A stretch of DNA of 64,000 nucleotides from contig NW_027266308.1 in NCBI RefSeq assembly GCF_022045235.1, forward strand, positions 9,734,001 to 9,798,000. Reading direction: 5' to 3'. Shown piece after piece: positions 15,040 through 58,202 of the stretch. The position numbers and the translations under genes are program-made. The stretch's first letter is position 1. Each line of letters starts with the position of its first letter. The notes below the pieces were generated by a model. The model did not search any database, was not told the origin of the DNA, and saw only the letters and a program-made list of their open reading frames with translations. This DNA comes from Haliotis cracherodii. Taxonomy: Eukaryota.

Positions 15040-15813
15040 CCACTCCCAGTAGTGGCATCTGGCTAGCTGGACACCCTGCCCCACCTCTCACCTGTAGTAG
15101 CACCTGGCTAGATGGACACCCTGCCCCACCCCTCACTTGTAGTAACACCTGGCCAACTGGAGACCCTGCCCCACCTCTCACCTGTAGTACCACCTGGCTA
15201 GATGCCCCACCCCTCACCTGTAGTAACACCTGGCTAGCTGCCCCACCCCTCACCTGTAGTAACACTTGGCTTGATGCACACCCTCCCCCACCCCTCACCT
15301 GTAGTAGCACCGGCTAGATGGACACCCTACCCCACCCCTCACCTGTAGTAACACCTGGCTACCTGGACACCCTGCCCCACCTCTCACCTGTAGTAGCACC
15401 TGGCCAGCTGGACACCCTGCCCCACCTCTCACCTGTAGTAACACCTGGCCAGCTGGACACCCTGCCCCACCTCTCACCTGTAGTACCACCTGGCCAGCTG
15501 GACACCCTGCCCCACCCCTCACCTGTAGTAACACTTGGCCAGCTTGACACCCTGCCACATCCCTCACCTGTAGTAACACTTGGCCAGCTTGACACCCTGC
15601 CACATCCCTCACCTGTAGTACCACCTGGCCAGCTGGACCCCCTGCCCAACCCCTCACCTGTAGTACCACCTGGCCAGCTGTACACCCTACCCCACCCCTG
15701 TAGTAACACCTGGCTAGATGGACACCCTGTCCCACCCCTCACCAGTAGTACCACGAGGCTAGGTGGACACCCTGCCCCCCCACTTACCTGTAGTAACACT
15801 TGGCCAGCTGGAC
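15040..15813 (-). repeat. 45-bp minisatellite derived from the TTC8 exon 5 / intron 5 junction
   Basis: Unit on minus strand GTCCAGCTGGCCAGGTGTTACTACAG|GTGAGAGGTGGGGCAGGGT; about 17 units. Confidence 0.95.
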
Positions 15814-15873
15814 CTTCCACCACCAGTCCTTGTACTGACAGGACTCCGTGGCCAGAGCAGCCAGCTCCAGGGC
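15788..15873 (-). CDS. TTC8: TTC8 coding exon 5
   Basis: ALELAALATESCQYKDWWWKVQLAKCYY(R), containing the DWWWK signature. 86 nt, donor GTAAGT. Confidence 0.95.
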
Positions 15874-16144
15874 CTGCAACAAGGGGGCACATATGTGTGT
15901 AAGAAAACTCAATAGTCAATAGGAGGTACACATATAGGGTACACTGACATCACACACATCACACAACATCAGGGGGCACGGACATATTAATGTAGCCATT
16001 TAATGTAAATGTTTCCATGGAGACCAACTTTAATGATAACCTCGGGGTACAGGTGCTTATTTATCCCCCCACTCACTGGAGTAGCGACCCCTAGGACGTG
16101 TGACCTTTGGTTAGTGGTGTGTTCCATCCCTACACAGTACTCAC

Positions 16145-16279
16145 ATTTCTCACATCATTTTCATGATGAAATATATATTCAAAGAGAGCCTTGGCCAAGT
16201 TTTGTCTGGCTGCATACTTGTTGAAGTTCAGTCTGGCCAGGTTGATGAATGGACCATCAGCATTGGACAGCATGGATGC
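16145..16279 (-). CDS. TTC8: TTC8 coding exon 4
   Basis: ASMLSNADGPFINLARLNFNKYAARQNLAKALFEYIFHHENDVRN. 135 nt, acceptor TTCAG, donor GTGAGT. Confidence 0.95.
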
Positions 16280-16289
16280 CTGAAGGGGG

Positions 16290-19200
16290 AACAGATTTAA
16301 CAGATATAACAAATGTAACAGATATAACACATGTAACAAATATAACAGGTATAACAGATGTAACCAATATAACAGGTATAACAGATATAACAAATGTAAC
16401 AGATGTAACAGAAATAACAGATATAACAGAAATAACAGATGTAACAGATATAACAGAAATAGCAGATGTAATAGAAAAAAACAGATGTAACAGACATAAC
16501 AGATGCAACAGATATAACAGATGTAACAGATATAACAGGTATATCAGATTAACAGATATAACAAATGTAACAGAAATAACAGATATAACAGATGTAACAG
16601 ACATAACAGATGTAACAAATGCAACAGATATAACAGATATAACAGATGTTACAGACATAACAGATGTAACAGATGTAACAGATATAACAGAAATAACAGA
16701 TGTAACAGAAATAACAGATGTAACAGAAATAACAGCATAACAGATATAACAGACATAACAGATGTAACAGATATAACAGATGTAAAACACTTTTCAGATT
16801 CAGATTCTGAAGTTGAATGCATTCATTCTGATATTTTGATAGCAAAGTTTAGATCGCCAGGTCATAGGTTTTCGGACGGCCACATTTCTCGCAATTACTC
16901 ACACTATATAACAGACATAACAGATGTAACAGATATAACAGATATAACAGACATAACAGATGTAACAGATATAACAGAAATAACAGATGTAACAGAAATG
17001 ATAGATGTAACAGAAATAACAGATGTAACAGATATAACAGAAATAACAGATGTAACAGAAATAACACTTGTAACAGATATAACAGATGTAACAGACATAA
17101 CAGATGTAACAAATGCAACAGATATAACAGATATAACAGATGTAACAGAAATAACAGATGTAACAGATATAACAGAAATAACAGATGTAACAGAAATAAC
17201 ACATGTAACAGATATAACAGATATAACAGATGTAACAGACATAACAGATGTAACAAATGCAACAGATATAACAGATATAACAGATGTTACAGACATAACA
17301 GATGTAACAGATATAACATAAATAACAGATGTAACAGAAATAACAGATGTAACAGATATAACAGATGTAACAGAAATGATAGATGTAACAGAAATAACAG
17401 ATGTAACAGATATAACAGACATAACAGATGTAACAGAAATAACACATGTAACAGATATAACAGATATAACAGATATAACAGATGTAACAGATATAACAGA
17501 AATAACAGATGTAACAGAAATAACAGATGTAACATATATAACAGAAATAACAGATGTAACAGACATAACAGATGTAACAGATATAACAGATGTAAAACAC
17601 TTTTCAGATTCAGATTCTGAAGTTGAATGCATTCATTCTGATATTTTGATAGCAAAGTTTAGATCGCCAGGTCATAGGTTTTCGGACGGCCACATTTCTT
17701 GCAATTACTCACACTTTTATAACAGACATAACAGATGTAACAGACATAACAGATGTAACAGATGTAACAGATATAACAGATGTAACAGAAATGATAGATG
17801 TAACAGAAATAACAGATGTAACAGATATAACAGAAATAACAGAAATAACACATGTAACAGATATGACAGAAATAACAGATGTAACAGACATAACAGATGT
17901 AACAAATGCAACAGATATAACAGATGTTACAGACATAACAGAAATAACAGATGTAACAGATATAACAGACGTAACAGGTGTAACAGATATAACAGATGTA
18001 AAACACTTTTCAGATTCAGATTCTGAAGTTGAATGCATTCATTCTGATATTTTGATAGCAAAGTTTAGATCGCCAGGTCATAGGTTTTCGGACGGCCACA
18101 TTTCTTGCAATTACTCACACTATAACAGAGGGTGTAGCATCACACAGACATTGTAAATACTCAGATGATGGCTTGTTTTTAAGATAAGTAGTAGTTTATA
18201 AGTGAATGAAATGTTTAACGGACGGCCATATTTCTCGCAATTACTCACATTATATAACAGACATAACAGATGTAACAGATATAACAGACATAACAGACGT
18301 AACAGATATAACAGACATAACAGATGTAACAAATGTAACAGAAATAACAGATGCAACAGAAATAACACATGTAACAGATATAACAGATGTAACAGAAATA
18401 ACAGATGTAACAGATATAACAGATGTAACAGATATAACAGATGTAACAGATATAACAGATATAACAGATGTAACAGAAATAACAGATATAAAGAAATAAC
18501 AGATATAACAGATGTAACAGAAATAACAGATGTAAAACACTTTTCAGATTCAGATTCAGATTCTGAAGTTGAATGCATTCAATCTGATATTTTGATAGCA
18601 AAGTTTAGATCGCCAGGTCATAGGTTTTGGGACAGCCACATTTCTCGCAATTACTCACACTATAACAGAGGGTGTAGCATCACACAGACATTGTAAATAC
18701 TCAGATGATGGCATGTTTTTAAGATAAGTAGTAGTTTATAAGTGAATGAAATGTTTAACGGACGGCCATATTTCTCGCAATTACTCACATTATATAACAG
18801 ACATAACAGACGTAACAGATATAACAGACATAACAGATGTAACAAATGTAACAGAAATAACAGATGCAACAGAAATAACACATGTAACAGATATAACAGA
18901 TGTAACAGAAATAACAGATGTAACAGATATAACAGATGTAACAGTAATAACAGATGTAAAAGATATAACAGATATAAAGAAATAACAGATGTAACAGAAA
19001 TAACAGATATAAAGAAATAACAGATGTAACAGATATAACAGACAAAAGATATAAAGAAATAACAGATATAACAGATGTAACAGAAATAACAGATGTAAAA
19101 CACTTTTCAGATTCAGATTCAGATTCTGAAGTTGAATGCATTCAATCTGATATTTTGATAGCAAAGTTCAGATCACCAGGTCATAGGTTTTCGGACAGAC

Positions 19201-19320
19201 ACATTTCTTGCAATTACTCGCACTATAACAGAGGGTGTAGCATCACATAGACATTGTAAATACTCAGATGATGGCTTGTTTTTAAGATAAGTAGTAGTTT
19301 ATAAGTGAATGAGATGTTTA
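16290..19320. repeat. Higher-order repeat: 9-bp units (ACAGATGTA/ACAGATATA/ACAGAAATA) in blocks separated by five copies of a conserved spacer
   Basis: Spacer AAAACACTTTTCAGATTCAGATTC... at about 16784, 17594, 18000, 18534 and 19097. Confidence 0.95.
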
Positions 19321-19902
19321 ACAGCTGCTCATGTAAGTAAGAGAGGAAACAATTTTTAGATACGGTATTACTTTACTGCTTTTATTACCATTCTTGTTGG
19401 AAAATAATTAACAAGAAATTATGGAAAAGAGAATTTATGGATGTCAACTTCTTTCTTATGAGGAACACAACGTTTCGGAGTATGTACTTACCTGATTCAG
19501 GAGTAAGAAATTATAGGCTATTAATATCTTTTTTTGAGAAAATAAAAGTTGTGCATCCCGCATATTGATGTACACACAATGTTTGAAGTATGAACACTCT
19601 GTTCCAAATAGTGCCTCACGTGTATTAAAAACCAAACTATGTCCTTTATTTAGACAGCACATTAACGTTTCCTTCCTGTGTATATTTAGTAGTTTTCTAT
19701 GGCTACGAGAAAGCAGCTGAATGATGTGGATTGCTGATCCATCAATGTTGAGAAAATCTAAAAAAAATGTGCTCATATTGAAAAGTTGGTCCTCTTGATA
19801 TTTTGACCCTTTTATATCTAAAATTGTCCTTCATCGAGTACTACTCATACAACAGATGAGGTCAGTATCCAAGCCTTATTTAAGAAATACGAACAAGAAG
19901 GA

Positions 19903-21608: not shown

Positions 21609-21670
21609 CTGTGATCATTATAGGACAATCAGTCTGATAATCACTATACAGCAAAGTTGTATACATACAG

Positions 21671-25505: not shown

Positions 25506-25607
25506 CTGATCATATGGGTTCTTCTCGAGAAGTTGTGTACAAATATCAACACATTTTTGATACTTTCTTCGCCTAAAATAGCTGTATGCAAGAAATAGTG
25601 GATCCAT
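25506..25607 (-). CDS. TTC8: TTC8/BBS8 (BBSome TPR protein) coding exon 1
   Basis: Translates MDPLFLAYSYFRRRKYQKCVDICTQLLEKNPYDQ, matching the known TTC8 N-terminus (MEPLLLAWSYFRRRKFQLCADLCTQMLEKSPYDQ). ATG at 25607, donor GTAAAT. Confidence 0.93.
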
Positions 25608-26043
25608 GATTTGTTTTCATCAACAAACTATTTTTCTTAATTGTCTCCCCTTTGGCTACGCTGGACCAACCAAATCGCGTTTAACAAATGATCCAACCAA
25701 ATTCCATGACACATAATTTAATGTATTTGTGCGCTCTGTACTAGCCCATGTTGAAAACATTCGAGATGACAAATCAGGAAATACGAGAACACAAAAGAGA
25801 GCAAGGGTTCAATATTCACCGTGGTCTCAACTTCAGACCATATATGTAATCACTGTTTTGTCAGAATAAAATGTGATGGGTGTTAGAAATCGATTGAGGC
25901 AGTAAAACATGTTTATGATTTCAAACAAACTGCGTTCGAACGAATCCAATATTTTTCATTAGCGGTCAGCAAGACACTTCCGAAAGACGCTCTTGTTGTC
26001 GTTCTTGGCATCAAGGTCTGAATCAAGAATTTCAGCTGTGAAA
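25608..26043. promoter_or_regulatory. Probable bidirectional promoter between TTC8 and CNIH4
   Basis: Divergent start codons only 436 bp apart; region is repeat-free and relatively CpG-rich. Confidence 0.7.
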
Positions 26044-26118
26044 ATGGCATTGGATTCGTTCTTGTTTATATTTGCTCTGATCGACGAGGCGACGTTGCTT
26101 TTCTTGGCAGTGTATTTT
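26044..26118 (+). CDS. CNIH4: Cornichon homolog 4-like, coding exon 1
   Basis: MALDSFLFIFALIDEATLLFLAVYF (first TM helix), followed by the U12-type donor GTATCCTTT. Confidence 0.88.
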
Positions 26119-30354: not shown

Positions 30355-30590
30355 TTTTGTATTGTTTATCTGATTGACTGTTGTCTTGTATTATGTATCT
30401 GATTGACTGTTGTTTTCTTTATCTGATTGACTGTTGTTTTGTTTAACTGATTGACTGTTATCTTGTATTGTGTATCTGATTGACTGATTTGTTTATCTGT
30501 TGACTGTTGTCTTGAATTGTATCTGATTGACTGTTGTTTTGTGTATCTGATTGACTGTTTTGTTTATCTGATCAGCTGTTGTTTTGTTCA
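30355..30590 (+). repeat. Degenerate ~25-bp repeat (TATCTGATTGACTGTTGTTTTG) ending at the CNIH4 last acceptor
   Basis: About 9 units running into GTTTTGTTCACAG. Confidence 0.85.
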
Positions 30591-30593
30591 CAG

Positions 30594-30630
30594 GATGATT
30601 TATTCACTGGTCAAGGGCGATGAGAGCTGA
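30594..30630 (+). CDS. CNIH4: CNIH4-like terminal coding exon 5
   Basis: (W)MIYSLVKGDES*. Acceptor TTCACAG, phase-consistent; total CDS 435 nt = 144 aa. Confidence 0.85.
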
Positions 30631-31470
30631 AGCACAGGTCCGAGGTCCCCTCACGATGTGATGCCTACCAAGGATGTACCAAGGAGACCTGTCACTGTTA
30701 ACATGATACACTGGTCGTTCCTTTCTTTTCTTAGTTAGGTCATAAGTTTTTTATGCATTTGATGAATATACGTATAGCTGCCATGTGTTCAGGGTTCTCA
30801 CTGTGCAGGGAATTATTGAGAAAATGCCACAGTTGTCATCCTCTAGTTGTTGGTTAAATGATTGATATGTTTTAAATGATTAGTAAAGATGAGTAACTCT
30901 ACGGAAGATGATAGAGTAATATAATTTAAAAACATCAGTGGGCATTCTTTTTTATCTCTGCAGACTTTGTTTTCCCTAAACAAATAATTTAGAAACATAG
31001 TATTATTTGTTGTTGAAGGAGTGCTCTGTTCGAATGATATTCCAAACGAGCAGGCTCCATTATGTGTGGTTGCAGTTTCCTTTAAAATCACAGTGTTGTA
31101 CTTAAACTATATACAGTGAAACCCTGGCATGAAATCTGGAAGTCTGGATGAAATCTGATATAACTGAACAGATGATCTGGATCCTGACAGTTTGACAGGG
31201 CACAGGGTTTTCACTATTGTCCCCAAACACCTTAAAACATTTTCATTTTTATTAACATATTCAAAAAATGTTTTGTTCTTTCCATGCAAACTACTGAAGA
31301 AGTAAAAGAACAACCAATTTTTTCATACGACTAAAATTAATCTTTCTTACCAAGACAGGTCTCATGACAGGTCTCATGACAAGTCAATCTGTCATGAAAA
31401 CATTGGGTGTTTATTTACTTCTTTTGAGTTGGTATGTGTCCCACTGTACAGGGTATTTCTTTTCGTGCAG

Positions 31471-31627
31471 GGCGGTCGGGTAGCCTAGTGGTTAAAGCGT
31501 TCGCTCGTCACGCCGAAGACCCGGGTTCGATTCCTGACATGGGTACAATGCGTGAAGGCCATTTCTGGTGTCCCCTGCCGTGATCCTAAAAGGGGTGTAA
31601 AACCATACTCACTCACTCACTCACTCA
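31471..31627 (+). mobile_element. tRNA-derived SINE family A, full length
   Basis: A box TAGCCTAGTGG, B box GGTTCGATTCC, (CACT)n tail, 14-bp TSD TTCTTTTCGTGCAG. Confidence 0.92.
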
Positions 31628-34600
31628 TTCTTTTCGTGCAGTAGGTTTCTGATTTTAGTTTGATGTATATTTAGAGAATAGCCCACAAGCTACTGTTAAT
31701 TATGGGTTTTCTGTCTTAAAGGGAAATAACTTTGCAAGTTCCAAGCCTTGGCTGGACACTTTCAACATTAATTCATAAGGGGCAGATAATCCTGTAATTC
31801 TGTGTTGCGAGTCGGTATTTCCTTGTGTTACCCAGGCCCTGTTGCTGTATTTTCTGTTATAAAAGTGGAACATCTGCTCTGTTAGTGGATTGGTGCAAAC
31901 ACGTCACATATAATTGTTTGTGACGTCATAGACAATGGATGATGTCATCTTCGTTTTTTTCCAACAGTGCTTTCATGTGATGTTGCCCTGGCATAGGCAC
32001 AATGGGCATTTTCATAAACAATAGAACACTTGGAACGAACTAGCACATGCAAGTTATTATTCTCAGTGAGAACTAGTTTGTACTAAACCCATGCTCTTGT
32101 CACCAAAGTGACCTGCATTGATTTGGGCTTTCCTCCCACATTAAGCTAACACGTCGTGATATAACTGGAATACTGTTCAAAGCAGTTTTATAAAATAGTA
32201 ATAATAATAGGTCATTTATGTTTCGCATATTTCCACACGACTCAGGCGCATGCTCAAAGCACTATTATAACCCCGGTCAGTGGATCAGTGCGCACTCGAG
32301 AATCATTCTCAGCTCCATGGGGAGTATACTGCCCAACTCAATGTGAATTACTGAAAGTCTTTTCACCTTTATCTATGCCTCTTTGGGCACGATGGGTCAT
32401 ATTAAAAAATTCTGAATGAAATGTTTTGTTCCTCTCTCAAATATAAATTCAAGAAATAGTATTTCTGTTCACAGCATTATACACAAGATCATTTAGAATT
32501 AGTAAAGCGGATCTTACGTCACAAATCCAAAGATGAGATCGAACATTGCTACTGACATCTTAGAGGAGATTGTTTGGCTGTTGTCATGGTGATTAGTCAC
32601 ATGTGACACCTGGAGCAGGTGTAATGTGTCAAATATTTCTCAAAAAATTATTTTGTATTGCTGAAATAACAGAGAGCAAATTATATGGACAGGTGACAGA
32701 ATGTGATTTCAAGTGTATTTAGTCCGAAGTATTACATAGAACAGAATTTGACGTGATCATCTGTTTTCATCACTTTGATCACTTGTATGTGCAAATGAAA
32801 TTTGGTATACTAATCACTAATTCTATTCTCCATTTAATATCCAAAGTCCAATAAACATCAGGACTGTCCAGATTCTCTCCTGTGTTTCATCAAGAGGTTA
32901 TATCAAACACAAAAGGATTTTATTTTTTAATCTAACTTTCTCTACTTGCCACTCTGCTGTCTGGCATTGGAGAGAAAAGCTGGTGTTGGATTTGGTCCCC
33001 GCAACTGATAATCGTTGTGCGAGGAAGGTGTTTGAAATAATTGTAAGACCCAACAAGATAGTCAGGCAGATGACCCATTGGCGTTGTCTGCCCATCTTCA
33101 AAGTTACCTGCCAACATTCAGATATTGTAAAAATTGAAAAATCACAAAAACAAATCAAAGACAAATCACATCTATTGCGTCTTGATTTAGCTGAAATAAT
33201 GCAAACAATTACTTGAAAATCTACAAGGAGTTACAATAAAACTGAATATGTAAGTTGTCTTAAAATTATCTGCCAGACAGTCGGGCAGGTGGAGGAAAAT
33301 TTCATGCAGCCCGACAGGAAAGTTACCAGCCGCGGGCAGGCGGGCAGGCAGTTATTTCAGACACTGTACAGGGTGGCCTGATCTATCAGGTGGTCAAGCT
33401 AGGTGGCTTGGTTGGTTGTGTGCCTTCCCACCCTGACAGCTTGCTTATAACAATCACTGGATTGTCTGGCCCAGACTCGATTACCATTAGGATTTGATGA
33501 CGATGTTATTAGCTGTGGCTATCTGTGTCGAGTTGCATCCATTGTATATCATCCTACAAGGAACTGTATGTGTTTGTGCTGGCTGCAAGTGTGTCCACTT
33601 CTTGGTTATTGGTGCAAAAGAACAAATTGAGAACCATTGTGCAATATTGTATATTGTTGTAGAGATGTACAGGATGTCTGTGAGAAATGTCTGTTGCAAG
33701 GAAGAGAAGTTTTCCATCGATCCGTGGATGACGTGACATCAAGGGTTGATTCTGCTATACATGCCATTACAATAGTGTCGGCGTCAAAGGGAGATAACTC
33801 TAGATACCAGAAGTGAGAATGTAAACAATGTCAGTGTGGGGAAATTCTAATGTTGCTAAGTAACTTGTAAGTAATGGTAAGTGATGGAATGTTTGGTCCA
33901 TGTTGCTAGGATATGGGGTAGGTTGTGAGGATGTAACGAGGATTGTAGAAACATGAGTTGTGTTGAAACGAGCTGTTATGATCTTTCACAGGCATAAATC
34001 ATAGAATCCCCCACACCCCTGGGTAACTTACAGTGGATTTTGAAAACTGTTGATGGATGCTTTTTCTCTCCATCAAAGACAACAGGATTATCCATTGTTT
34101 TCAAGAAACAGTGTCATTTTACAGTTGCTAAGATATGTTCTGTTGAAGGGAGAACCTCATTTCTTTGAACTCTGCTGCCATTCAAACATGAATCTAGCAC
34201 CCCACAACCTCTAACATCAGGGTTACGACAAGGACTCTTGACTTTCATGCTTAAGTTTGAACACTGAACACCTTTTGATGGATGTTTTCTATCAAGGAAT
34301 CCAGAGTTATTCTTATTTTGTCCTGTTTCATGAAGCAACAATTGTTTATTTGTAAGCCGAAGTGAACGAGTTACAAGATGTAGCTCTGATCCCATTGTGA
34401 GACAAGGCACTGGTTCTCAAGTGGTGCCTTTTGTTGAAGGAAGTTGTGTTCAACCGGAAAACAATTTATTATCTTTAGGCTGAACATACGTGTCAGCTTT
34501 TTCAGTGCCTCATATCTAACCTCAGTATCTTAATAGCAGGATATATTTTCAACAAGAGAACTCAGATTCATAGCCAAAACAAGCAAAATTTTAATTTGTC

Positions 34601-37563: not shown

Positions 37564-37862
37564 TAGGTCTGAGACGGGTAAATCAGGTCATGAGGTCCTT
37601 AGTAGGACCCACGTACCCACTAGACTACCCGGACCCATGGCTAGTATGTGACTTATTGTTTAATAACAATAAAACCTCATGGTTACACTACAAGTCGCTA
37701 ATGTTCCCATTTCTTTCTGACCTTGAACTCATTCCTACTAACTTTTATATGTTTAAGTAAAGATAACGGTTCAGTAAACTTAAGTGTACGCATGATCAGA
37801 TTGTTTGTACCCAAATCTTGAGCGGGTGCCTGGGTAGAAAATTTGGACTCGTCGTAGTCCTA
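37564..37862 (-). mobile_element. hAT-type MITE (family E), degenerate and deleted copy
   Basis: Shares the AAATTTGGACTCGTC terminus and internal blocks; degenerate 8-bp TSD. A further 5' fragment lies at about 62279-62344. Confidence 0.7.
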
Positions 37863-40451: not shown

Positions 40452-40880
40452 ATAGGAACACCTTCACCTACTGGGCCACCTTGTTATCAGGTGAATCTGG
40501 GATTCAAACCTGTGGATCCTGGCAGGTGAGGTAGGGAACACCTTCACCCACTGGGCCACCTTGTTATCAGGTGAATCTGGGATTCAAACCTGTGGATCCT
40601 GGCCGGTGAGATAGGCAACACCTTCACCCACTGGGGCACCTTGTTATCAGATGAATCTGGGATTCAAACCTGTGGATCCTGGCAGGTGAGATAGGCAACA
40701 CCTTCAACCTCTGGGCCACCTCGTTATCAGGTGAATCTGGGATTCAAACCCGTGGATCCTGGCAGGTGAGATAGGCAACACCTTCACCCACTGGGCCACC
40801 TTGTTATCAGGAGAATCTGGGATTCAAACCCGCGGATCCTGGCAGGTGAGGTAGGCAACACCTTCACCCACTGGGACACC
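40452..40880 (-). repeat. 80-bp tandem repeat of a tRNA-like Pol III promoter unit
   Basis: About 5.4 units, period exactly 80; each unit has TGGCCCAGTGG and GGTTTGAATCC on the minus strand. Confidence 0.85.
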
Positions 40881-43097
40881 ATGGAGCTAACAGCAAGACC
40901 AAGTGATGACAATGGTCACCGTAGCTACGAAATAGGAAAAATATGAGAGTAATTTATCCAGGACTTGTTTCAAACTAACGTCAAGAAGTAGAGATTGAAT
41001 CTGCAGATGAGTAGGTCAGGCTCTTGTTGGATAATGACCACAATCAAGCAAGTGTCCATGATGGTACAAATGTACACCTCATACATGCATGAAATTATGA
41101 TTTCTTTGAAAGAACACTGGTGCACGCAAGTCACAGCTTTACGTCATATGTTGCAGTAATCAAAGGCTACAACAAAACTCTCGTCAGTGTGCAAAGTGCA
41201 TTGTTATTTACTACTGTCAATCATAAATTATTCTTTAGAATATTCTGGCCTCAAGTTTTAGTTTAAATACCAGTAATTTGTTCATATACACATTCACTGA
41301 TCCCATTTATGTTATTTTGTAAATTTAACTTTCAGATCACAAAAAAATTCATTTTTCAAGTTAAGTAATTTCAATTAAAAGTTAAAAAAACCATAATTAC
41401 ATTGAAAAAATTATAATCTCCCTTTGATCTTTTTAAGACTTATAACATTCTCAATTTGCCACTTGACATAACAGAGAAGTGTTTCAAGACGACATCTTGT
41501 CACTTAAAGCGAGTTTGGCATTTAGCATCTTCATTACTCCAACTACGACGAGGGAGGCACCAAAAACTGGCTCAAACATTGTACATGTTAGGAATTGAAC
41601 CCAGTCCGCAGGGCGACAAGCTAACACCTTGTCAACTTGGCTACCCTTCGCCCATCAGTTTAAGGTGCCTGACTAGAAACAAAACATAAAGACACTTTAC
41701 ACACTGACGACACATGTAGACAACTGCTGGGCAGTACAGTCATCAGATTCACATACATAGCATTAGGGTGAACATCACTTGACATACGATGATCACGAAA
41801 GCCTTCATGGAAGCTGTGCTACTTTCTGTTATGAAGCAATGTTTACCAAAATATTAAGTCTGTCCTCCTCTACCGACACAATTATAAATACTATTACATA
41901 AATAACACTCTGTGTATAAATCTTCGCTCAGTGATCTGAATGTTTAAAGGCCTTTCATTTCATCTATATCACATGATCATATTAAACATGCAGTTTTAAC
42001 TGAAGCTAAACTAAATTAATAAAATGTTGTAGTAACTGCTGAACTGTTTTGTATTTATAACAGACAAATTTCATAGCACTGTTTATAACAAACATATCCA
42101 ACAATATCAGATTCTTGCCGTACAAAGCACACAAAGAGAATGATCGTATTAATGAATAAAGATTTCTAAAAAGTTCATATTCTGTTACAGTGAACTTGGA
42201 TGGAATGCAAGATACATGGTATCAGACCTGACCAGTGATGTAACTAAAATACAGGATTTCATTTCGAGACCACTACCTCAGGAATTACAATAACAAGTTT
42301 ATCAATACCATTATTGATGCAAATGTTATTCCATAAATTTCAATATCTCCAACTACTCGAAAACAAACAGTTCCAAATAGAAGTGCAGCATCATGTAAAT
42401 AAAACCAGTTTAAGTTGACGCTCACATCAGTGAGTGTGGATGGTGATGTGCTGCTATCTGCATTACCGTATTTGCTGTAATAAACAAGCTGGGTGCTAAG
42501 AAACTTGAGGGGGAGCTTATAAAACCATACACAAGAAGTTAATTTTGTTGGCAGAGATCATGAGGTAGTGAACAAATTTAGTTCAAATATTGACGAAAAT
42601 AAAACTTTTTTGATAATAGCTACTAGGCAAATAAATACCCCTTCTTCACTGCTGCACGTCAAAACAAGAAAATAGGGTAAAAGTTTTTGCTTAGTTTGGG
42701 GCATTTTTTAGATAATTTACAGACTCATCTAAAAGTTAATAAGGTGGTGACTATTGGAACAGGATGTTTAACACAGCGAATATGATATTCCAGCCAACTT
42801 GGATACCATGAATGGGTTTAAAACAATGTACCCATCTTGGGAATCTTCTGGTGACAAGGCAACACTTGAACAGCTCGGCTACCACACTACCCCTACACTC
42901 ACACAGAACTTTTGACACAGACATCAAATTTTCTATGACAGCTAACTGCACAATGCATTCATCTCTGATTAAGTTGAATATCTAACTACAAGATACCTCT
43001 GAAATATGTGCAATGATGTATAAATTTCTGCAATACATGTAAATAAATCCTTTATTACATGACACTGTACAAAGAGAGATAAGCACTTTTCTTGTAG

Positions 43098-43340
43098 GGG
43101 TGATGGGGTAGTCTAGTGGTTAAAGCATTCGCTCGTCATGCCCTGGATCTGGGTTCGATTCCCTACATGAGTACAGTTTATGAAGCCCACTTCTGGGCCC
43201 ACTTGCACAAAGCGATCTCAGCGCTAAGACTATTGTAAGCCTATGTTAAAGTATGGGAGTTACGATCATCTTAGCGCTAAGATCGCTTTGTGCAAGCGGG
43301 CCCTGGTGTCCCCGTCATGATATTGCTGGAATATTGCTAA
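43098..43340 (+). mobile_element. SINE family A interrupted by a MITE
   Basis: Head at 43098-43195; tail resumes at 43303. Confidence 0.85.
43196..43302. mobile_element. Palindromic PIF/Harbinger-like MITE inserted into a SINE
   Basis: About 35-bp TIR GGCCCACTTGCACAAAGCGATCT.AGCGCTAAGA; 3-bp TSD CTG duplicated from the SINE sequence TTCTGGTGTC. Confidence 0.8.
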
Positions 43341-43916
43341 AATTGGCATAAAACCATACCCTAACTTTTCTTGCCACACCAATCAGGGAAGGCATCCCAT
43401 GTCAATTCACATTGCAGACCAACATCAAAACATCTATTTCACAATTTCGTCCTATTTGGCAGCCTCTGATAAATATTTAGGTAGATATTAGTGTGAAGGT
43501 AACTAGCATGACAAAGAATTGAGTTGTACTTCTATCCAGCCCAGATACTAGAATGTCAGACACCACTGATCGGATCTGGCCATGAGTTGGTGTTTACAGA
43601 GTCTGCTGAGATGAGATGAAGCATGGCAACGCTATCTGCTCAATTATGACATAAAACATATTAGCTTATCTAGAGTGGATATAATATGACAAAGTAATCA
43701 GGAAAGTATGTACAAAAGATAAAATATAATGCAAGTGATAAAATATCATCTCCAACTGTACTTGACAAACATCAACATAAACCACAGATAGTACCACACA
43801 CAGATCGAGAGAAGGCCTCAACGCTCAACTCTCACTCAACTCAACACTCAACTCATTGTGTCATAAGAAAAACTAAGAAGCAATATTGTATTTTCAACCA
43901 ACTTCGAGAGCATATA

Positions 43917-43998
43917 TACTACTCAAAAGAAGTTAAAGAACACCTGATTAACGATAGTCATATGAAAGAAACATGTTCTTTAACTTCTTTTAGCAGTA
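43917..43998. mobile_element. Very short Tc1-type MITE
   Basis: About 25-bp TIR TACTACTCAAAAGAAGTTAAAGAACA with TA flanks; a related single end at about 45533. Confidence 0.7.
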
Positions 43999-45439
43999 TA
44001 CATGTCTTATTTTCCTTTATAAAGTAAACAATGATCCATATAAAATGTATATTGCAATGTCTTTATATCTTTCAAAGTCATATACTTTAGAGCAAAACTA
44101 AAATTTTCTACCACAATGAGGTAGAGACTTTCTTCTAAAAAGCATATAAAAATGTCTGTCCTTAATTTCATGTAAAAAAAATTCAAAACATTTCACCCTT
44201 CTCAAATAGTCGAGCAAATCAACAGTTACCAAGGGCACAGAATTAATATCACAAGTCTGACTTTTTTCCCCTGAAAAACAACTTTGTTAACAACAATTGA
44301 GCGAGTGACCTTCTGGCAGTTTGTGTGCGGACATGGTGACTTCACTCCAGTAATACCCATAGTAACCATAGCAACAGTGCTCCACACATCACATCTAACC
44401 TGAACTTGGTGCATTGCCGCTACCCAGCGAAATAAACGGTAGGCCAATGAAAGATTAACTACAGTCGTGTGAAAGAAATGTGGTGTTCTGAACTTGTTTT
44501 GAGTGGTACACCATGAGCAGTGTAATAATTTCATAATCAGCATGAACAACCCGTGTCTAGGATTTCAAACTAAGTGCCCTTTGGCACACAAATATGGAAA
44601 GAATATTTACCTAACAACTGGGATTTTTTAAGTTCTTATTTTTTAATTTTAGAGGTATTTCATCCACTGCAATAATGTAAAATGAAACATTAAAGCCTTT
44701 CCTCTATATTGGTCCTGTTATCAGCTATCAACTGATATGAGCTATCAACTATATTAACATGAATTAGAAAATAGTTTAAATAGTGGGAATTACGTCTCAC
44801 ATTTCCTGACTTGGCCGAGTAATGGCCACTGAGCAAGTCTAGATAAATCCCTGAAATCTATATTTACAGTTACACTGGGTGCATCATAGCATGACACACA
44901 CAATTAGTTCTCATGGAAATGTTATCTCTAATGACGAACACTTTCACTGTTATTTATAATATATCAATATTTATCTATAATTAAAGTGCCAAACATTATT
45001 TCCTTTTCTCAGTAATTATCTGTGGGACGAGGGCTATCTCAACTGAAACTGCAATTATTAGTACTCTTGATGTTATTTTTTGCATTTTTCTTACTAAAAT
45101 CTCATATTACAGACCAAAACATACCTTACAGGTATCATTTTCTTATTCATATTAAGGAGATTGACACAAATATACGTCAGCTAGTTTCAATTCAAATCGG
45201 TCAATATTCTGCATTGAAAAAAAATCTGGGTAGCAGACAACAGCACCAGAACAAACTAAGGGAGATAACTGTTGTGTCCCGAAAGGACAAGAAAACCCAT
45301 GACACCATGAACTGACTATCTCTCACCATTAGGAACAACTCTGCTAGCTACATGCTTCCATATTCTGCTACAGTTGGTAGATACGTATCAAAATGTCTAC
45401 TGTACACAAATATCATACATAGCTTACAGAAGGCCTTGG

Positions 45440-45477
45440 TCATACCGGCGTACTCCGCCCTGATTCACTCATGTTTC
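45440..45477 (-). CDS. WDR26: WDR26 probable terminal coding exon
   Basis: Strong acceptor TTGTTTTGTTTCAG, phase 1 compatible, (G)NMSESGRSTPV* with TGA at 45440-45442. Based on splice signals, not strong homology. Confidence 0.7.
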
Positions 45478-46217: not shown

Positions 46218-47243
46218 TCTGTTGAACACATGCCAGTCATTTCTACTGAACACATTCCAGTCGTACCTACTGAACACATTCTGGTCATATCTACTGAACA
46301 CATTCTAGTCATATCTACTGAACACATACCAGTCATTTCTACTTAACACATCCTAGTCGTAGCTACTGAACACATTCTAGTCGTATCTACTGAACACATT
46401 CTAGTCGTATCTACTGAACACATTCTAGTCGTATCTACTGAACACATTCTAGTTGTATCTACTGAACACATTCTAGTCGTATCTACTGAACACATTCTTG
46501 TCGTATCTACTGAACACATTCTAGTCGTATCTACTGAACACATGCCAGTCGTATCTACTGAACACATTCCAGTCTTATCTACTGAACATATTCTAGTCAT
46601 ATCTACTGAACACATACCAGTCATTTCTACTGAACACATTCTTGTCGTATCTACTGAACACATTCTAGTCATATCTACTGAACACATTCTAGTCATATCT
46701 ACTGAACACATTCTTGTCGTATCTACTGAACACATTCTAGTCGTATCTACTGAACACATTCTAGTCGTATCTACTGAACACATGCCAGTCGTATCTACTG
46801 AACACATTCTTGTCGTATCTACTGAACACATTCTAGTCATATCTACTGAACACATACCAGTCATTTCTACTGAACACATACAAGTCGTAGCTACTGAACA
46901 CATTCTAGTCGTATCTACTGAACACATGCCAGTCGTATCTACTGAACACATTCTTGTCGTATCTACTGAACACATTCTAGTCATATCTACTGAACACTTA
47001 CCAGTCATTTCTACTGAACACATACAAGTCGTAGCTACTGAACACATTCTAGTCGTATCTACTGAACACATTCTAGTCGTATCTACTGAACACATTCTAG
47101 TCGTATCTACTGAACACATGCCAGTTGTATCTACTGAACACATTCTTGTGGTATCTACTGAACACATTCTAGTCGTATCTACTGAACACATTCTAGTCGT
47201 ATCTACTGAACACATTCTAGTCGTATCTACTGAACACATTCCA
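46218..47243. repeat. 24-bp minisatellite (TCGTATCTACTGAACACATTCTAG)n
   Basis: About 42 units in the last WDR26 intron. Confidence 0.97.
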
Positions 47244-47288
47244 GAGAACACTTTCCACCAGTGCAGTAGGAAGAGGGAACAGTCGTAC

Positions 47289-48246: not shown

Positions 48247-48271
48247 CTGAAACATAAGAAATTCAAAGAAT

Positions 48272-49412
48272 ACATTGAAGTGTGTCAGATCCTACATAGA
48301 CTCACACATTGAAGTGTGTCAGATCCTACATAGACTCATACATTGAAGTGTGTCAGATCCTACATAGACTCACACATTGAAGTGTGTCAGATCCTACATA
48401 GACTCACATATTGAAGTGTGTCAGATCCTACATAGACGCACACATTGAAGTGTGTCAGATCCTACATAGACTCACATATTGAAGTGTGTCAGATCCTACA
48501 TAGACGCACACATTGAAGTGTGTCAGATCCTACATAGACTCACACATTGAAGTGTGTCAGATCCTACATAGGCTCACACATTGAAGTGTGTCAGATCCTA
48601 CATAGACGCACACATTGAAGTGTGTCAGATCCTACATAGACTCACACATTGAAGTGTGTCAGATCCTACATAGACTCACACATCGAAGTGTGTCAGATCC
48701 TACATAGACTCACACATTGAAGTGTGTCAGATCCTACATAGACGCACACATTGAAGTGTGTCAGATCCTACATAGACGCACACATTGAAGTGTGTCAGAT
48801 CCTACATAGACTCACACATTGAAGTGTGTCAGATCCTACATAGACTCACACATTGAAGTGTGTCAGATCCTACATAGACTCACATATTGAAGTGTGTCAG
48901 ATCCTACATAGACTCACACATTGAAGTGTGTCAGATCCTACATAGACTCACACATTGAAGTGTGTCAGATCCTACATAGACTCACATATTGAAGTGTGTC
49001 AGATCCTACATAGACTCACACATTGAAGTGTGTCAGATCCTACATAAACTCACACATTGAAGTGTGTCAGATCCTACATAGACGCACACATTGAAGTGTG
49101 TCAGATCCTACATAGACTCACACATTGAAGTGTGTCAGATCCTACATAGACTCACACATTGAAGTGTGTCAGATCCTACATAGACGCACACATTGAAGTG
49201 TGTCAGATCCTACATAGACTCACACATTGAAGTGTGTCAGATCCTACATAGACTCACACATTGAAGTGTGTCAGATCCTACATAGACTCACATATTGAAG
49301 TGTGTCAGATCATACATAGACTCACATATCGATGTGTTTCAGATCCTACATAGACTCACATGTTGAAGTCTGTCAGATCCTACATAGACTCACATGTTGA
49401 AGTCTGTCAGAT
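48272..49412 (-). repeat. 34-bp minisatellite derived from a WDR26 exon/intron junction
   Basis: Unit on minus strand GATCTGACACACTTCAATGT|GTGAGTCTATGTAG; about 33 units filling almost the whole intron. Confidence 0.97.
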
Positions 49413-49539
49413 CATCAAAGTTGTATCCCCTGATTCGATGGTGTGTATCTGCTGCCAACACTGTCTTGCCGTCTCCTTGGCAACCAAGACACTGGACCCG
49501 AACTCCCTCCCAGTTGTCCAGCACCGTGCCGTCGATATC
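49394..49539 (-). CDS. WDR26: WDR26 coding exon (WD40)
   Basis: [48 protein letters not shown]. 146 nt, donor GTGAGT. Confidence 0.95.
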
Positions 49540-51304: not shown

Positions 51305-52822
51305 CCTATTCTGATTGGGAATCCCCACTGGGAGGTGTACCTATTCTGACTGGGAATCCCCATTGGGAGGTGTATCTATTCGGACTGGGAATCCCCACTG
51401 GAAGGTGTATCTATTCTGACTGGGAATCCCCACATAGGGGTGTATCTATTCTGACTGGAAATCCCCACATACAGGTGTATCTATTCTGACCAGGAGTCCC
51501 CACATAGGGGTGAATCTATTCTGACTGGGAATCCCCACATAGGGGTGTATCTATTTTGACTGGGAATCCCCATTGGGAGGTGTATCTATTCCAACTGGGA
51601 ATCTCCATTGGGAGGTTTATCTTTTCTGACTGGGAATCCCAAATGGGAGGTGTATCTATTCCAACTGGGAATCCCCATTGGGAGGTGTATCTATTCCAAC
51701 TGGGAATCTCCATTGGGAGGTGTATCTATTCCAACTGGGAATCCCCATTGGGAGGTGTATCTATTCCGACTGGGAATCCCCACTGGGAGGTGTATCTATT
51801 CCAACTGGGAATCCCCATTGGGAGGTGTATCTATTCCAACTGGGAATCTCCATTGGGAGGTGTATCTACTCTGACTGGGAATCCCCCTTTGGGAGGTGTA
51901 TCCATTCCAACTGGGAATCCCCATTGGGAGGTGTATCTATTTTGACTGGGAATCCCCATTGGGAGGTGTATCTATTCTGACTGGGAATCCCCACTGGGAG
52001 GTGTATCTACTCTGACTGGGAATCCCCATTGGGAGGTGTATCTATTCCGACTGGGAATCCCCATTGGGAGGTGTATCTATTTTGACTGAGAATCCCCATT
52101 GGGAGGTGTATCTATTCCAACTGGGAATCTCCACATACAGGTGTATCTATTCTGACCAGGAGTCCCCACATAAGGGTGAATCTATTCCGACTGGGAATCC
52201 CCACTGGGAGGTGTATCTATTCCGACTGGGAATCCCCACTGGGAGGTGTATCTAATCCGACTGGGAATCTCCATTGGGAGGTGTATCTACTCTGACTGGG
52301 AATCCCCCTTTGGGAGGTGTATCCATTCCAACTGGGAATCCCCATTGGGAGGTGTATCTATTCTGACTGGGAATCCCCACTGGGAGGTGTATCTACTCTG
52401 ACTGGGAATCCCCATTGGGAGATGTATCTATTCCGACTGGGAATCCCCATTGGGAGGTGTATCTATTTTGACTGAGAATCCCCATTGGGAGGTGTATCTA
52501 TTCCAACTGGGAATCTCTACATACAGGTGTATCTATTCTGACCAGGAGTCCCCACATAAGGGTGAATCTATTCCGACTGGGAATCCCCACTGGGAGGTGT
52601 ATCTATTCCGACTGGGAATCCCCACTGGGAGGTGTATCTAATCCGACTGGGAATCCCTATTGAGAGGTGTATATATTCTGACTGGGAATCCCCACTGGTA
52701 GGTTTATCTATTCTGACTGGGAATCCCCACTGGGAGGTGTATCTATTCTGACTGGGAATCACTACTGGTAGGTTTATCTTTTCTGACTTGGAATCCCCAC
52801 ATCGGGGTTTACCAATTCTGAC
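51305..52822. repeat. 35-bp minisatellite (ACTGGGAATCCCCATTGGGAGGTGTATCTATTCCA)n
   Basis: About 43 units, including a ~386-bp higher-order duplication (identical ORFs at 52064 and 52450). Confidence 0.97.
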
Positions 52823-52844
52823 TAATATGGTAAGGAAGACGTAC

Positions 52845-53429: not shown

Positions 53430-53514
53430 ACGTCAAGCCAAGAGACAAAACAATGATATATAAGGGTCTGGGCAAATAATGTCTGATACTTAGGATTTCT
53501 GATGGCCAGATGAT

Positions 53515-53770: not shown

Positions 53771-54121
53771 GAGGACAATGTTTTGAGATGAGAGAAGTGA
53801 GACCTGCACAGTACAACATCTTCAGCATGCTGATACACAATCAAATTAATAACTGTTAGACATTCAACCTGTTACCATGGTTAAGAGAAAACAAAATGTT
53901 AGACACATGGAAGATCCAGGGTTAGAATAGGTCTTCAACAACCCATTCTTGCCGTAAAAGTAGACTATGCTGACACGTAATAGTGTAATAACTCATAATT
54001 TGGCTTTGTAGACATCACTTCAACAAACAATATTTCCCCAAAATGTCCTGACAACATGGACCAGGGCAATTAGTTTGGATAAATCCCTGATCATGGACAG
54101 GAAACTGTTCAGTCAACTTAC

Positions 54122-54260
54122 TAGATCTACATCCCACACAATCATTGTGCAATCCTTCGAGCCGGTGGCGAGTTTGGTACCATCTGGTGAGAAGCGACAG
54201 AACCACACCTCGTCACAGTGGTCGTTGAGAATCTGTATCGTGTTGCATGGAAACTGGTCC
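54122..54260 (-). CDS. WDR26: WDR26 coding exon (WD40)
   Basis: [46 protein letters not shown]. 139 nt. Confidence 0.95.
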
Positions 54261-54615
54261 CTGCACAAGCTCAAGTACATTACCAACATGGTCAGACATG
54301 GCCACAACAAACCCTTGTTCACAACATTATTATCTTACTCTCCTGCTCGTAAATATCAACAGACTTATTCCTGCCGAGTCACAAATCAACTGCTAGGAAG
54401 CTAATCCAGGGCTGTATATTATAACTAGATCATTCATATTTCTCAGGATTTCAAATATATTCATAATTTTGGGCGTTAACTGGAAATCATCTAAAATGTC
54501 ATCAAGAAAATGTTCTGAAATGACCTATACAATTCAAGGTTTCAGAATCAATGCCTGGCATTATGACCGTTACTCCCTCCCCCAGTTGTTACACTGGTCA
54601 GCAGACTGGACTTAC

Positions 54616-54772
54616 TTGCTGCAGACATGGTCCAGGAGCAGGGAGACTGCGTCCAGCCCGCTGTCCAGACGGGTGTTGTGATAGGGACACTTGTCCTTCT
54701 GCAGCTCCACTGCCTGTGTGAGCAGCGTCAGCAGACGGCGAGGTGGCAACATTACTGTGGGGGGCAGAAAGG
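54616..54772 (-). CDS. WDR26: WDR26 coding exon
   Basis: [51 protein letters not shown]. 157 nt. Confidence 0.95.
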
Positions 54773-54774
54773 CT

Positions 54775-55075
54775 GCAGACAGATGGCATATTCCTTAGAC
54801 ATATTCTATTTGGTCGATAGTCTAACAGTCACCTGAGGCAGACGGCATATTCTATGGCTCTATGGTCTATCAGTCACCTGAGCCAGATGGCATATCCCTA
54901 AACATATTTTATGTGTTCTACGGTCTATCAGTCACTCGAGGCAGACGGCATATTCAAAAACATATTCTATGTGTTCTACGGTCTAACAGTCACCTGAGAC
55001 AGCATATTTATAAACATATTCTAAGTGGTCTACAGTCTAACAGTCACTTGTGGCAGACGGCATATTCCTTAAACA
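54775..55075. repeat. Degenerate ~60-bp tandem repeat abutting a WDR26 acceptor
   Basis: Recurrent CAGAYGGCATATTC...GGTCTAACAGTCACCTGAG blocks. Confidence 0.75.
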
Positions 55076-55562
55076 TCACCTGCTCTCCCTGAATGTTGCA
55101 GTGGAGTGGACGTAATGCTACCTAACCAGTACAGACACTGCGTCCAAAAGTAGTGTGTCAGGCAACAATCATCACACATAACCTGTATTCAAAATATATT
55201 CATATTCCTTGATTGAAATTATCTGCTATACTATCTGTTTTGGACAATTACTAATTCTATCTTTGATCAGTTTTGTTTTTCTGTCTGTTTTTTTTCCTGA
55301 TTATCACTTGTGAGCCCAGGAGTCCAGAAAATACATTAGCTGTAATAATCACGAGCTACAATAGGTAGATTCAATACAATGTCATTTTGAAAGAGAACAT
55401 GACCTTGTCACATCAATCTGTTGCAAGATACTGTCAAGCTCACAAGATTTGGATTTTAGCCAACAGGTAGACATGCACCAACAGATCGCTGCCAATAGGA
55501 AGGCAACGTGTGTGTCTGGGTGACATCACAAGATACAGCGACAGTCCTGTGCTGCTACTTAC

Positions 55563-55660
55563 ACTGTAGTTTCTCCACAAGCCTCTGTCGGGACTCGGAC
55601 CCCTTGCCCTGCCAGTCGGCCATGTCGCGCAAATCCTCTGGGGTGCTGCACATCATATAT
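55563..55660 (-). CDS. WDR26: WDR26 coding exon
   Basis: YMMCSTPEDLRDMADWQGKGSESRQRLVEKLQ. 98 nt, phase-consistent. Confidence 0.93.
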
Positions 55661-55667
55661 CTGGAAC

Positions 55668-56500
55668 ACAGGGGACTAGATAATACTCTACACCACGCAG
55701 GGGACTAGATAATACTCTACACCACGCTGGGGGCCAGATAATACTCTACACCACACAGGGGACTAGATAATACTCTACACCACACTGGGGACTAGATAAT
55801 ACTCTACACCACGCTGGGGACTAGATAATACTCTACACCACACTGGGGACTAGATAATACTCTACACCACACAGGGGACTAGATAATACTCTACACCACG
55901 CTGGGGACTAGATAATACTCTACACCATGCAGGGGACCAGATAATACTCTACACCATGCAGTGGACTAGATAATACTCTACACCACACAGGGGATTAGAT
56001 AATACTCTACACCATGCAGGGGACCAGATAATACTCTACACCATGCAGTGGACTAGATAATACTCTACACCACACAGGGGACTAGATAATACTCTACACC
56101 ACGCAGGGGACTAGATAATACTCTACACCACGCTGGGGACTAGATAATACTCTACACCACGCTGGGGACTAGATAATACTCTACACCACACTGGGGACAA
56201 GATAATACTCTACACCACACTGGGGACTAGATAATACTCTACACCACACAGGGGACTAGATAATACTCTACACCACGCAGGGGACTAGATAATACTCTAC
56301 ACCACACTGGGGACTAGATAATACTCTACACCACGCAGGGGACTAGATAATACTCTACTCCACACTGGGGACCAGATAATACTCTACACCACACTGGGGA
56401 CTACATAATACTCTACTCCACACTGGGGACCAGATAATACTCTACACCACACAGGGGACCAGATAATACTCTACACCACACAGGGGACCAGATAATACTC
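55668..56500. repeat. 29-bp minisatellite (GGGGACTAGATAATACTCTACACCACACA)n
   Basis: About 28 units starting within 10 bp of the WDR26 acceptor at 55661. Confidence 0.97.
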
Positions 56501-56551
56501 GATGATACGCTACACAACATAGGGCCCTGCTAGAGCCATGACCCACAGTCA

Positions 56552-58202
56552 GTCCCCTGTACAATATATCACCACTGAGGTCCCCTGTTCAATATACCAC
56601 CACTGAGGTCCCCTGTACAATATACCACCACCGAGGTTTCCTATACAATATACCCCCACTGAGGTCTCCTATACAATATACCACTGAGGCCCACCGTACA
56701 ACAAACCACCACTGAGGTCCCCTGTACGACATACCACCACTGAGGTCCCCTGTACAATATACCACCACTGAGGTCCCCTGTACAATATACCACCACTGAG
56801 GTCCCCTGTACAATATGCCACCACTGAGGTCCCCTGTACAATATACCACCACTGAGGTCCCCTGTACAATATACCACCATGAGGTCCCCTGTACAATATA
56901 CCACCATGAGGTCCCCTGTACAATATACCACCACTGAGGTCCCCTGTACAATATACCACCACTGAGGTCCCCTGTACAATATACCACCACTGAGGTCCCC
57001 TGTACAGTATACCACCGAGGTCCCCTGTACAATATACCACCACTGAGATCCCTGTAGAATATGCCACCACTGAGGTCCCCTGTACAATATACCACCACTG
57101 AGGTCCCCTGTACAATATACCACCACTGAGGTCCCCTGTACAATATACCACCACTGAGGTCCCCTGTACAATATACCACCACGGAGGTCCCCTGTACAAT
57201 ATACCACCACTGAGGTCCCCTGTACAATATACCACCACTGAGGTCACCTGTACCATAAACCACCACTGAGGTCCCCTGTACAATTTACCACCACTGAGGT
57301 CCCTGTACAATATACCACCACTGAGGTCCCCTGTACAATATACAAACGCTGAGGTCCCCTGTACAATATACCACCACTGAGGTCCCCTGTACAATATACC
57401 ACCACTGAGGTGCTCCCACTACTAGTCATGACCCACAGTCAGTCCCCTGTACAATTTACCACCACTGAGGTCCCCTGTACAATATACCACCACTGAGGTA
57501 CCCTGTACAATATACCACCACTGAGGTCCCCTGTACAATATACCACCACTGAGGTGCTCCCACTACTAGTCATGACCCACAGTCAATCCCCTGTACAATT
57601 TACCACCACTGAGGTCCCCTGTACAATATACCACCACTGAGGTCCCCTGTACAATATACCACCACTGAGGTACCCTGTACAATATACCACCACTGAGGTA
57701 CCCTGTACAATATACCACCACTGAGGTCCCCTGTACAATATACCACCACCGAGGTCCCCTGTACAATATACAACCACTGAGGTCCCCGGTACAGTATACA
57801 ACCACCGAGGTCCCCTGTACAATATACAACCACCGAGGTCCCCTGTACAATATACAACCACTGAGGTCCCCTGTACAATATACCACCACTGAGGTACCCT
57901 GTACAATTTACCACCACCACCGAGGTCCCCTGTACAATATACCACCACTGAGGTCACCTGTACAATATACCACCACCGAGGTCCCCTGTACAATATACCA
58001 CCACTGAGGTACCCTGTACAATTTACCACCACCACCGAGGTCCACTGTACAATATACCACCACTGAGGTCACCTGTACAATATACCACCACCGAGGTCCC
58101 CTGTACAATATACCACCACTGAGATCCCCTGTACAATATACAACCACCGAGGTCCCCTGTACAATATACCACCACTGAGGTCCCCTGTACAATATACCAC
58201 CA
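56552..58202. repeat. 28-bp minisatellite (CCACTGAGGTCCCCTGTACAATATACCA)n
   Basis: About 55 units, with recurrent interruptions containing CATGACCCACAGTCA. Confidence 0.97.

What the first reader, a model, noticed from the sequence alone, without database searches (positions are those of the whole stretch)
15040..58202. Intronic minisatellites are anchored at, and often built from, splice junctions in all three genes
Seen in the sequence: eight tandem arrays start within about 50 bp of a reconstructed splice site. These are the TTC8 exon 5 donor (45-bp), TTC8 exon 4 acceptor (9-bp higher-order repeat), CNIH4 last acceptor (~25-bp), WDR26 donors at 47288 (24-bp), 49393 (34-bp) and 52844 (35-bp), and WDR26 acceptors at 54773 (~60-bp) and 55661 (29-bp). 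The units are unrelated to one another and match only local sequence; in three arrays the unit contains the exon end plus the GT donor. Inference: a junction-biased local amplification process (e.g. slippage or repair at co-transcriptional pausing, R-loop or nucleosome-edge sites) inflates introns outward from exon edges, with expansion tolerated only on the intron side. Counter-examples: the arrays at 1390, 3290 and 40452 are not near any exon I found, and the 56552 array ends about 225 bp from a donor.
Basis: partly seen in the sequence, partly recalled or inferred. Interest (0 to 1): 0.7.

Follow-up and report, generated by a model that had tools for sequence, protein, structure and literature searches.

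The report
Abalone splice-site minisatellites ("mirages")
In three abalone genes eight tandem repeats sit right beside splice sites and two copy the exon end with its splice signal, a kind already known from lancelets and humans; the clustering recurs in 18 other genes and is likely due mostly to short introns and to which duplications a gene can tolerate, with a small unexplained excess just before splice acceptors.

Summary
Real, but mostly a known phenomenon. Gene models (TTC8, CNIH4, WDR26; abalone) confirm all eight junction coordinates; 8 of 11 intronic arrays lie within 50 bp of a junction against 3.0-3.7 expected. Two units, not three, clearly hold exon end plus GT (45-bp, 34-bp): 'mirage' minisatellites, as in amphioxus and human F7. 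RNA-type contigs of three organisms use the first donor of the 34-bp array, and the array is shared with relatives, so it is no artefact. Independent test, 690 introns of 18 dynein genes: 82 of 192 arrays within 50 bp against 47 by within-intron shuffle. Letting a unit straddle the exon edge and discounting transposons raises the expectation to 65-82, so most of the excess goes. What holds: GT-covering arrays about at or a little above expectation (26 vs 16-23), AG-covering arrays depleted (8), none inside exons (0 vs 23). Unexplained: about twice too many arrays end 1-25 bp before the AG, and arrays scale per intron, not per base. The transcription/R-loop mechanism is neither shown nor excluded. 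This scan noted mirages before in this genome and in others.

The parts
15059..15813 (-). 45-bp minisatellite, about 17 copies; unit = last ~26 nt of TTC8 exon 5 + first ~19 nt of intron 5; real donor CAG|GTAAGT, 13 decoys CAG|GTGAGG or CAG|GTGAGA (donor mirage)
   Evidence: unique in G000
15788..15873 (-). TTC8 exon 5 (donor at 15787)
16145..16279 (-). TTC8 exon 4 (acceptor at 16280)
16290..19098 (-). 9-bp array with higher-order spacer blocks (last spacer runs to about 19330 by eye), ends 10 bp before the exon 4 AG; no exon sequence in the unit
30356..30588 (+). ~24-bp T-rich array ending 5 bp before the last CNIH4 acceptor (30593)
46223..47241 (-). 24-bp array, 47 bp after WDR26 exon 13 donor (47288); only borderline likeness to the junction
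48272..49413 (-). 34-bp array, about 33 copies; unit = last 20 nt of WDR26 exon 10 + first 14 nt of intron 10; fills all but 25 bases of the intron; one decoy identical to the real donor (donor mirage)
   Evidence: first donor used in RNA-type contigs and array shared with organisms B and C; unique in G000
49394..49539 (-). WDR26 exon 10; both borders supported by spliced contigs
51306..52823 (-). 35-bp array, 21 bp after WDR26 exon 8 donor (52844); no exon sequence
54800..55076 (-). 58-bp array before WDR26 exon 6 acceptor (54773); degenerate terminal unit reaches the AG
   Evidence: array sequence also in organism B
55666..56500 (-). 29-bp array ending 5 bp before WDR26 exon 5 acceptor (55661)
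   Evidence: raised depth over first unit in organisms A and B
56552..58203 (-). 28-bp array in the same intron 4, 225 bp from the exon 4 donor (counter-example)
1390..2263 (.). 27-bp array deep in TTC8 intron 7 (counter-example)
3290..4196 (.). 20-bp array deep in TTC8 intron 7 (counter-example)

Best explanation
The arrays are locus-specific minisatellites, two of which copy an exon end with its donor ('mirages'); they likely arise by ordinary local duplication and unequal exchange, and their clustering at junctions likely comes mostly from short ancestral introns, from units long enough to straddle an exon edge, and from selection on splicing. Steps: (1) a 10-100-bp stretch duplicates and expands in place (shown: units are locus-specific; slippage or unequal exchange inferred); (2) copies inside exons are purged (shown as absence); (3) copies over a donor survive because the most upstream donor is used (shown for the 34-bp array; mechanism taken from human F7) and a leak would hit a stop codon at once (sequence; decay by NMD inferred); (4) copies over an acceptor survive less often because upstream AGs compete (depletion shown, cause inferred); (5) the remaining exon-proximity excess likely reflects older, deletion-protected, GC-richer DNA near exons against transposon-diluted deep introns (inferred).
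For: Seed null 65-82 expected vs 82-86 seen; strict edges 30-31 acceptor side and 35-38 donor side vs 30-38 expected. GT covered 26, AG covered 8, expected 16-23 each, P 0.003 for the asymmetry. 0 vs 23 exonic arrays. Decoy GT kept at 0.93 vs 0.90 for other unit positions in 22 arrays, so decoys are not being purged. Contigs of 3 of 3 RNA-type runs join 49394 to exon 11. Read-through of the WDR26 donor gives ...FNM-stop; TTC8 gives AGG TAA (sequence). Transposon cover 2-7% within 50 bp vs 25% at 100-200 bp; arrays 43% GC, first 25 intron bases 40-42%, rest 35-39%. PMC3087553, PMC1557585, PMC3902484 (passages).
Against: 22 arrays end 1-25 bp before the AG vs 8.4-10.8 expected (P at most 0.0012; 14-15 vs 7.4-9.4, P 0.016-0.049 with strict edges; worst leave-one-gene-out P 0.023), and microhomology density is flat there. 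Pooled over all introns, seeds are 4.6-9.4 per 10 kb within 50 bp and 1.2-1.4 beyond 400 bp, and arrays per intron stay 0.23-0.28 up to 1.2 kb; array-bearing introns are no longer than array-free ones once collapsed (630 vs 606, P 0.45). Uniform origin per base does not predict that; step 5 is untested. The window itself still exceeds the seed null (8 vs 3.7). The test set is one gene family.
Confidence: 0.55

Rival explanations
1. A mutational process tied to exon edges (polymerase pausing or R-loops at the 3' splice site, nucleosome-free linker, or recombination repair that starts in conserved exons and slips on entering divergent intron DNA) raises the duplication rate about 2-3 times near junctions; selection then removes exonic and most AG-covering copies.
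For: Pooled density peak at 1-25 bp, ratio 2.5-3.2; acceptor-side excess; arrays scale per intron; GT-covering arrays up to 1.7 times expectation although exons hold fewer microhomologies.
Against: No donor-side excess at 1-25 bp (10-11 vs 8-11); inside long introns (800 or more unique bases) 4 of 49 arrays within 50 bp vs 3.0-6.2 expected; excess shrinks with strict edges and transposon masking. No direct evidence on transcription or chromatin.
Confidence: 0.28
2. Arrays start anywhere, and later deletions erode the unique spacer until the essential splice signals stop them, the array itself supplying branch point and pyrimidine tract.
For: Many arrays stop 1-12 bp short of the AG; would also explain short collapsed lengths; one organism-B contig joins the 34-bp unit to at least 50 bases unlike the 25 in this genome (a single contig, weak).
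Against: No matching pile-up after donors; no orthologous introns could be read whole.
Confidence: 0.1
3. The arrays are selected regulators of splicing (decoy or spare sites, tunable isoforms).
For: Decoy donors are intact; some arrays are shared between species; human VNTRs can affect splicing (PMC10078293, listing only).
Against: Units unrelated; decoy GT kept no better than neighbouring bases to any clear degree (0.93 vs 0.90); only first donor seen; decoy use would give a stop.
Confidence: 0.04
4. Assembly artefact or chance.
For: The window was picked by eye; its near-junction share is higher than in the test set (8 of 11 vs 82 of 192).
Against: 34-bp array in organisms B and C, 29-bp and 58-bp in B; copies differ from one another; pattern repeats in 18 other genes.
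Confidence: 0.03

Closest known systems
Amphioxus 'mirage' minisatellites (Adh3, globins BflGb6/BflGb9, troponin C, PGBD5); PMC3087553 and PMC3902484, passages read; the original Adh3 paper not seen
   Same: Tandem copies of an exon-intron boundary, locus-specific units (10-160 bp there), both donor and acceptor types, normal mRNA, origin unclear, suggested to be general in that genome.
   Different: Mollusc; only 2 of the 8 arrays here are true mirages, the other 6 merely lie next to a junction; here a rate is measured (26 GT-covering and 8 AG-covering arrays in 690 introns) with nulls, which the passages read do not give.
Human F7 intron 7 37-bp VNTR, and CBS, LMNB2, PDGF, IFI6 cases; PMC1557585, passages read
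   Same: First unit spans the donor; identical pseudo-donors follow; the most upstream donor is used.
   Different: More exon in the unit here (20-26 nt vs 4), more copies (17, 33 vs 5-9), most decoys slightly changed; scanning mechanism not tested in abalone.
Internal tandem repeats at exon-intron boundaries of human duplicated genes; PMC2812944, passages read
   Same: Minisatellites of about 30 bp elongate introns at boundaries.
   Different: Those lie in young paralogs and can create introns; here old single-copy genes with intact proteins.

Membership tests
Mirage minisatellite | Tandem unit spans an exon-intron boundary | tested here: met
   45-bp and 34-bp arrays; not met by the 9, 25, 35, 29, 28-bp arrays; 24-bp and 58-bp borderline
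Mirage minisatellite | Copies keep the GT or AG | tested here: met
   13 decoys in the 45-bp array; 32 of 33 counted sites keep GT in the 34-bp array
Mirage minisatellite | mRNA is spliced at the authentic site | tested here: met
   34-bp array: 3 of 3 RNA-type runs (RNA status is the tool's guess, contigs drop rare forms). 45-bp array: only protein identity with an annotated protein
Mirage minisatellite | Unit is locus-specific, not a dispersed family | tested here: met
Mirage minisatellite | Copy number varies between alleles | not testable with these tools
   short-read contigs break in the arrays
F7-type oriented 5' splice-site scanning | Next downstream copy takes over when the first donor is mutated | not testable with these tools
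   needs minigenes
   82 of 192 vs 47.3
   P 0.002-0.25 by null; none within 50 bp with strict edges; acceptor 1-25 bp and pooled gradient remain

The most novel reading that the evidence does not exclude
In abalone, minisatellites are born per exon edge rather than per base of intron: a mutational bias of about 2-3 times centred on the pyrimidine tract and the donor, filtered by a roughly 3:1 donor-over-acceptor survival rule. About one intron in four carries such an array and they make 17% of intron DNA in the test genes, so splice-site-linked duplication would be a real driver of intron growth, and natural arrays of decoy sites would give hundreds of tests of splice-site choice in an invertebrate.
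Probability: 0.28. Interest if true: 0.6.

Novelty: new member of a known kind. Interest (0 to 1): 0.3.

Why it matters
The anatomy is known, so the window itself is an ordinary example. What adds something is the count: a null-tested rate of junction-spanning arrays and a donor/acceptor asymmetry that fits first-donor and first-AG choice. If the residual excess before acceptors is mutational, it would link splicing architecture to where duplications arise, which population long reads can test directly. For annotation, such arrays make false exons and shifted junctions.

Tried and rejected
Three exon-plus-GT units: only two hold. Microhomology richness of the pyrimidine tract as cause of the acceptor excess: density flat along 288 array-free introns; those arrays are only slightly T-richer (0.35 vs 0.31, P 0.007). 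Old AG-spanning arrays that lost likeness to the exon: 2 of 22 resemble their exon start, like controls (5 of 110). Purging of decoy GT or AG: not seen. Dispersed repeat families: 14 of 204 arrays match another array, none from the window. Kinase family search as a source of exons: best hits mostly intronless, not used. One search was flooded by two interspersed repeats, so its joints and loose ends gave nothing; no run was on record as RNA. tRNA in the 80-bp array: ARAGORN found none. Searches for a genome-wide treatment or an abalone report found the papers cited and nothing on abalone; the library lacks most subscription journals, and no supplements were read.

Full report
Setting. The window is G000:C45:9734001-9798000. 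Single exons find TTC8, WDR26 and cornichon-4 proteins named as Haliotis at 98-100% identity, so this is an abalone. With 100 kb of flank on each side, spliced models give TTC8 501/501, CNIH4 141/144 and WDR26 568/574 identical residues and 27 GT-AG introns.

Observation. TRF confirms the arrays. All eight named junctions are correct, with array edges at -26, 10, 5, 47, -20, 21, 27 and 5 bp. 8 of 11 intronic arrays in the window are within 50 bp; a shuffle in the array-free part of the same intron expects 2.96 (P 1.7e-4). One case is trivial (WDR26 intron 10 has 25 array-free bases). Left of the window only 1 of 8 TTC8 arrays is that close, a 114-bp unit holding 64 bases of exon 10. Of nine units compared with their exon edge, the 45-bp and 34-bp match clearly, the 24-bp weakly and without the GT, the other six not at all. 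The 34-bp and 45-bp units occur nowhere else in G000.

Reads. Two stretches were laid, on 6 of the 22 runs listed. Over the 34-bp donor, contigs of 3 of 3 RNA-type runs (organisms A, C, D) cover exactly 49394-49539 and continue into exons 11 and 9: the first donor is used although an identical one lies 34 bases on. RNA status is the tool's guess, contigs drop rare forms, and read-through meets a stop at once, so a small leak would be hidden. The array is present in organism B (contig depth up to 190 against 13 for single copy) and C; the 29-bp and 58-bp arrays show in B too. Copy number could not be read.

Independent test. I located 18 dynein heavy chain genes, fetched 1.6 Mb, took homologs from a profile search (47 of 150 hits, those of 2600 aa or more) and kept introns on which at least 2 of 4 reference proteins agreed: 690 introns, median 725 bp. 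192 arrays (100 bp or more, period 9 or more) lie in 176 of them; 65 further arrays in the gene spans fell outside resolved introns and were not counted (among the 17 near exons I read 7 as donor-spanning and 4 as acceptor-spanning by eye). A first pass on half the DNA gave the same picture (58 of 120).

Results. That null ignores that an array grows from a unit of length p that may straddle the exon edge, and that transposons, which avoid junctions, lengthen introns. With these, expectation is 65.2 or 70.5 (P 0.002, 0.026), and 76.0 or 81.7 against 86 with transposon DNA removed (P 0.047, 0.25). Trimming ragged terminal units leaves 64 vs 41.5 by shuffle but no excess under the seed null. The mask holds only repeats seen in the 1.86 Mb fetched, so it is incomplete.

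Selection signature. No array of 100 bp or more lies inside 568 exons (two repeats under 50 bp do), against 23 expected. 26 arrays cover a GT and 8 an AG (P 0.003; 16-23 expected each; one of the 8 is a merge artefact by eye). Decoy dinucleotides are kept as well as other bases. This fits upstream-donor choice as shown for human F7 (PMC1557585, passages) and first-AG scanning at acceptors (established knowledge, also stated in that paper).

Against my reading. 22 arrays end 1-25 bp before the AG, against 8.4-10.8; donors show 10-11. This weakens but persists with strict edges (14-15 vs 7.4-9.4) and on leaving genes out, and is not explained by microhomology or by decayed exon copies. Pooled, seed density falls from 4.6-9.4 per 10 kb within 50 bp to 1.2-1.4 beyond 400 bp, and arrays per intron are flat up to 1.2 kb; collapsed array-bearing introns are not longer than array-free ones. 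So some exon-proximity bias exists. Older, protected, GC-richer DNA near exons, erosion of spacers, or a mutational bias could each give it; I cannot separate them. Inside long introns no excess within 50 bp was seen (4 of 49 vs 3.0-6.2). All of this rests on one gene family.

What is known. Tandem copies of exon-intron borders are the 'mirages' of amphioxus (PMC3087553, PMC3902484; passages; supplements not read) and the human F7, CBS, LMNB2, PDGF and IFI6 cases; PMC2812944 (outline and passages) covers boundary repeats in human paralogs; PMC4039745 (passages) concerns a dispersed worm minisatellite and does not bear. Ten searches found no abalone report and no genome-wide null test, in a library without most subscription journals. 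Earlier notes of this scan describe mirages in this genome and in others.

Verdict. Two arrays are new members of a known kind; six are ordinary minisatellites beside junctions. The clustering is real, mostly accounted for by geometry and selection, with a modest residual worth a population test. Interest 0.3.

Noticed in passing
window 7214-7999 (+): Open frame with a DDE_3 (Tc1/mariner-type) transposase domain inside TTC8 intron 7 (E 4.7e-11).
   Followed up: partly
window 40447-40880: 80-bp array outside coding exons, between the CNIH4 and WDR26 3' ends; by eye the reverse strand resembles a tRNA-derived SINE head; ARAGORN finds no tRNA.
   Followed up: partly
window 16290-19330: The 9-bp array is a higher-order repeat: blocks of 9-mers alternate with a unique spacer of roughly 135-290 bases repeated about five times.
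   Followed up: no
G000:C45 about 43.1-43.6 kb left of the window (L006): 114-bp donor-spanning array holding 64 bases of TTC8 exon 10; gives a second tblastn hit.
   Followed up: partly
window 25607-26044 and 30630-45440: TTC8 and CNIH4 are head to head with start codons about 440 bp apart; CNIH4 and WDR26 are tail to tail. The same CNIH4-WDR26 adjacency in human is recalled, not checked.
   Followed up: no
dynein blocks L063-L222: Arrays make 17% and interspersed repeats at least 23% of intron DNA; 176 of 690 introns carry an array.
   Followed up: yes
window 49363 (run X8): One organism-B contig joins the 34-bp unit to at least 50 bases unlike this genome's 25-base spacer; may be a longer ancestral intron or an interruption.
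   Followed up: no
G000:C12 28.406-28.415 Mb (L021-L026): Six near-identical intronless kinase genes in tandem at about 1.6-kb spacing.
   Followed up: no
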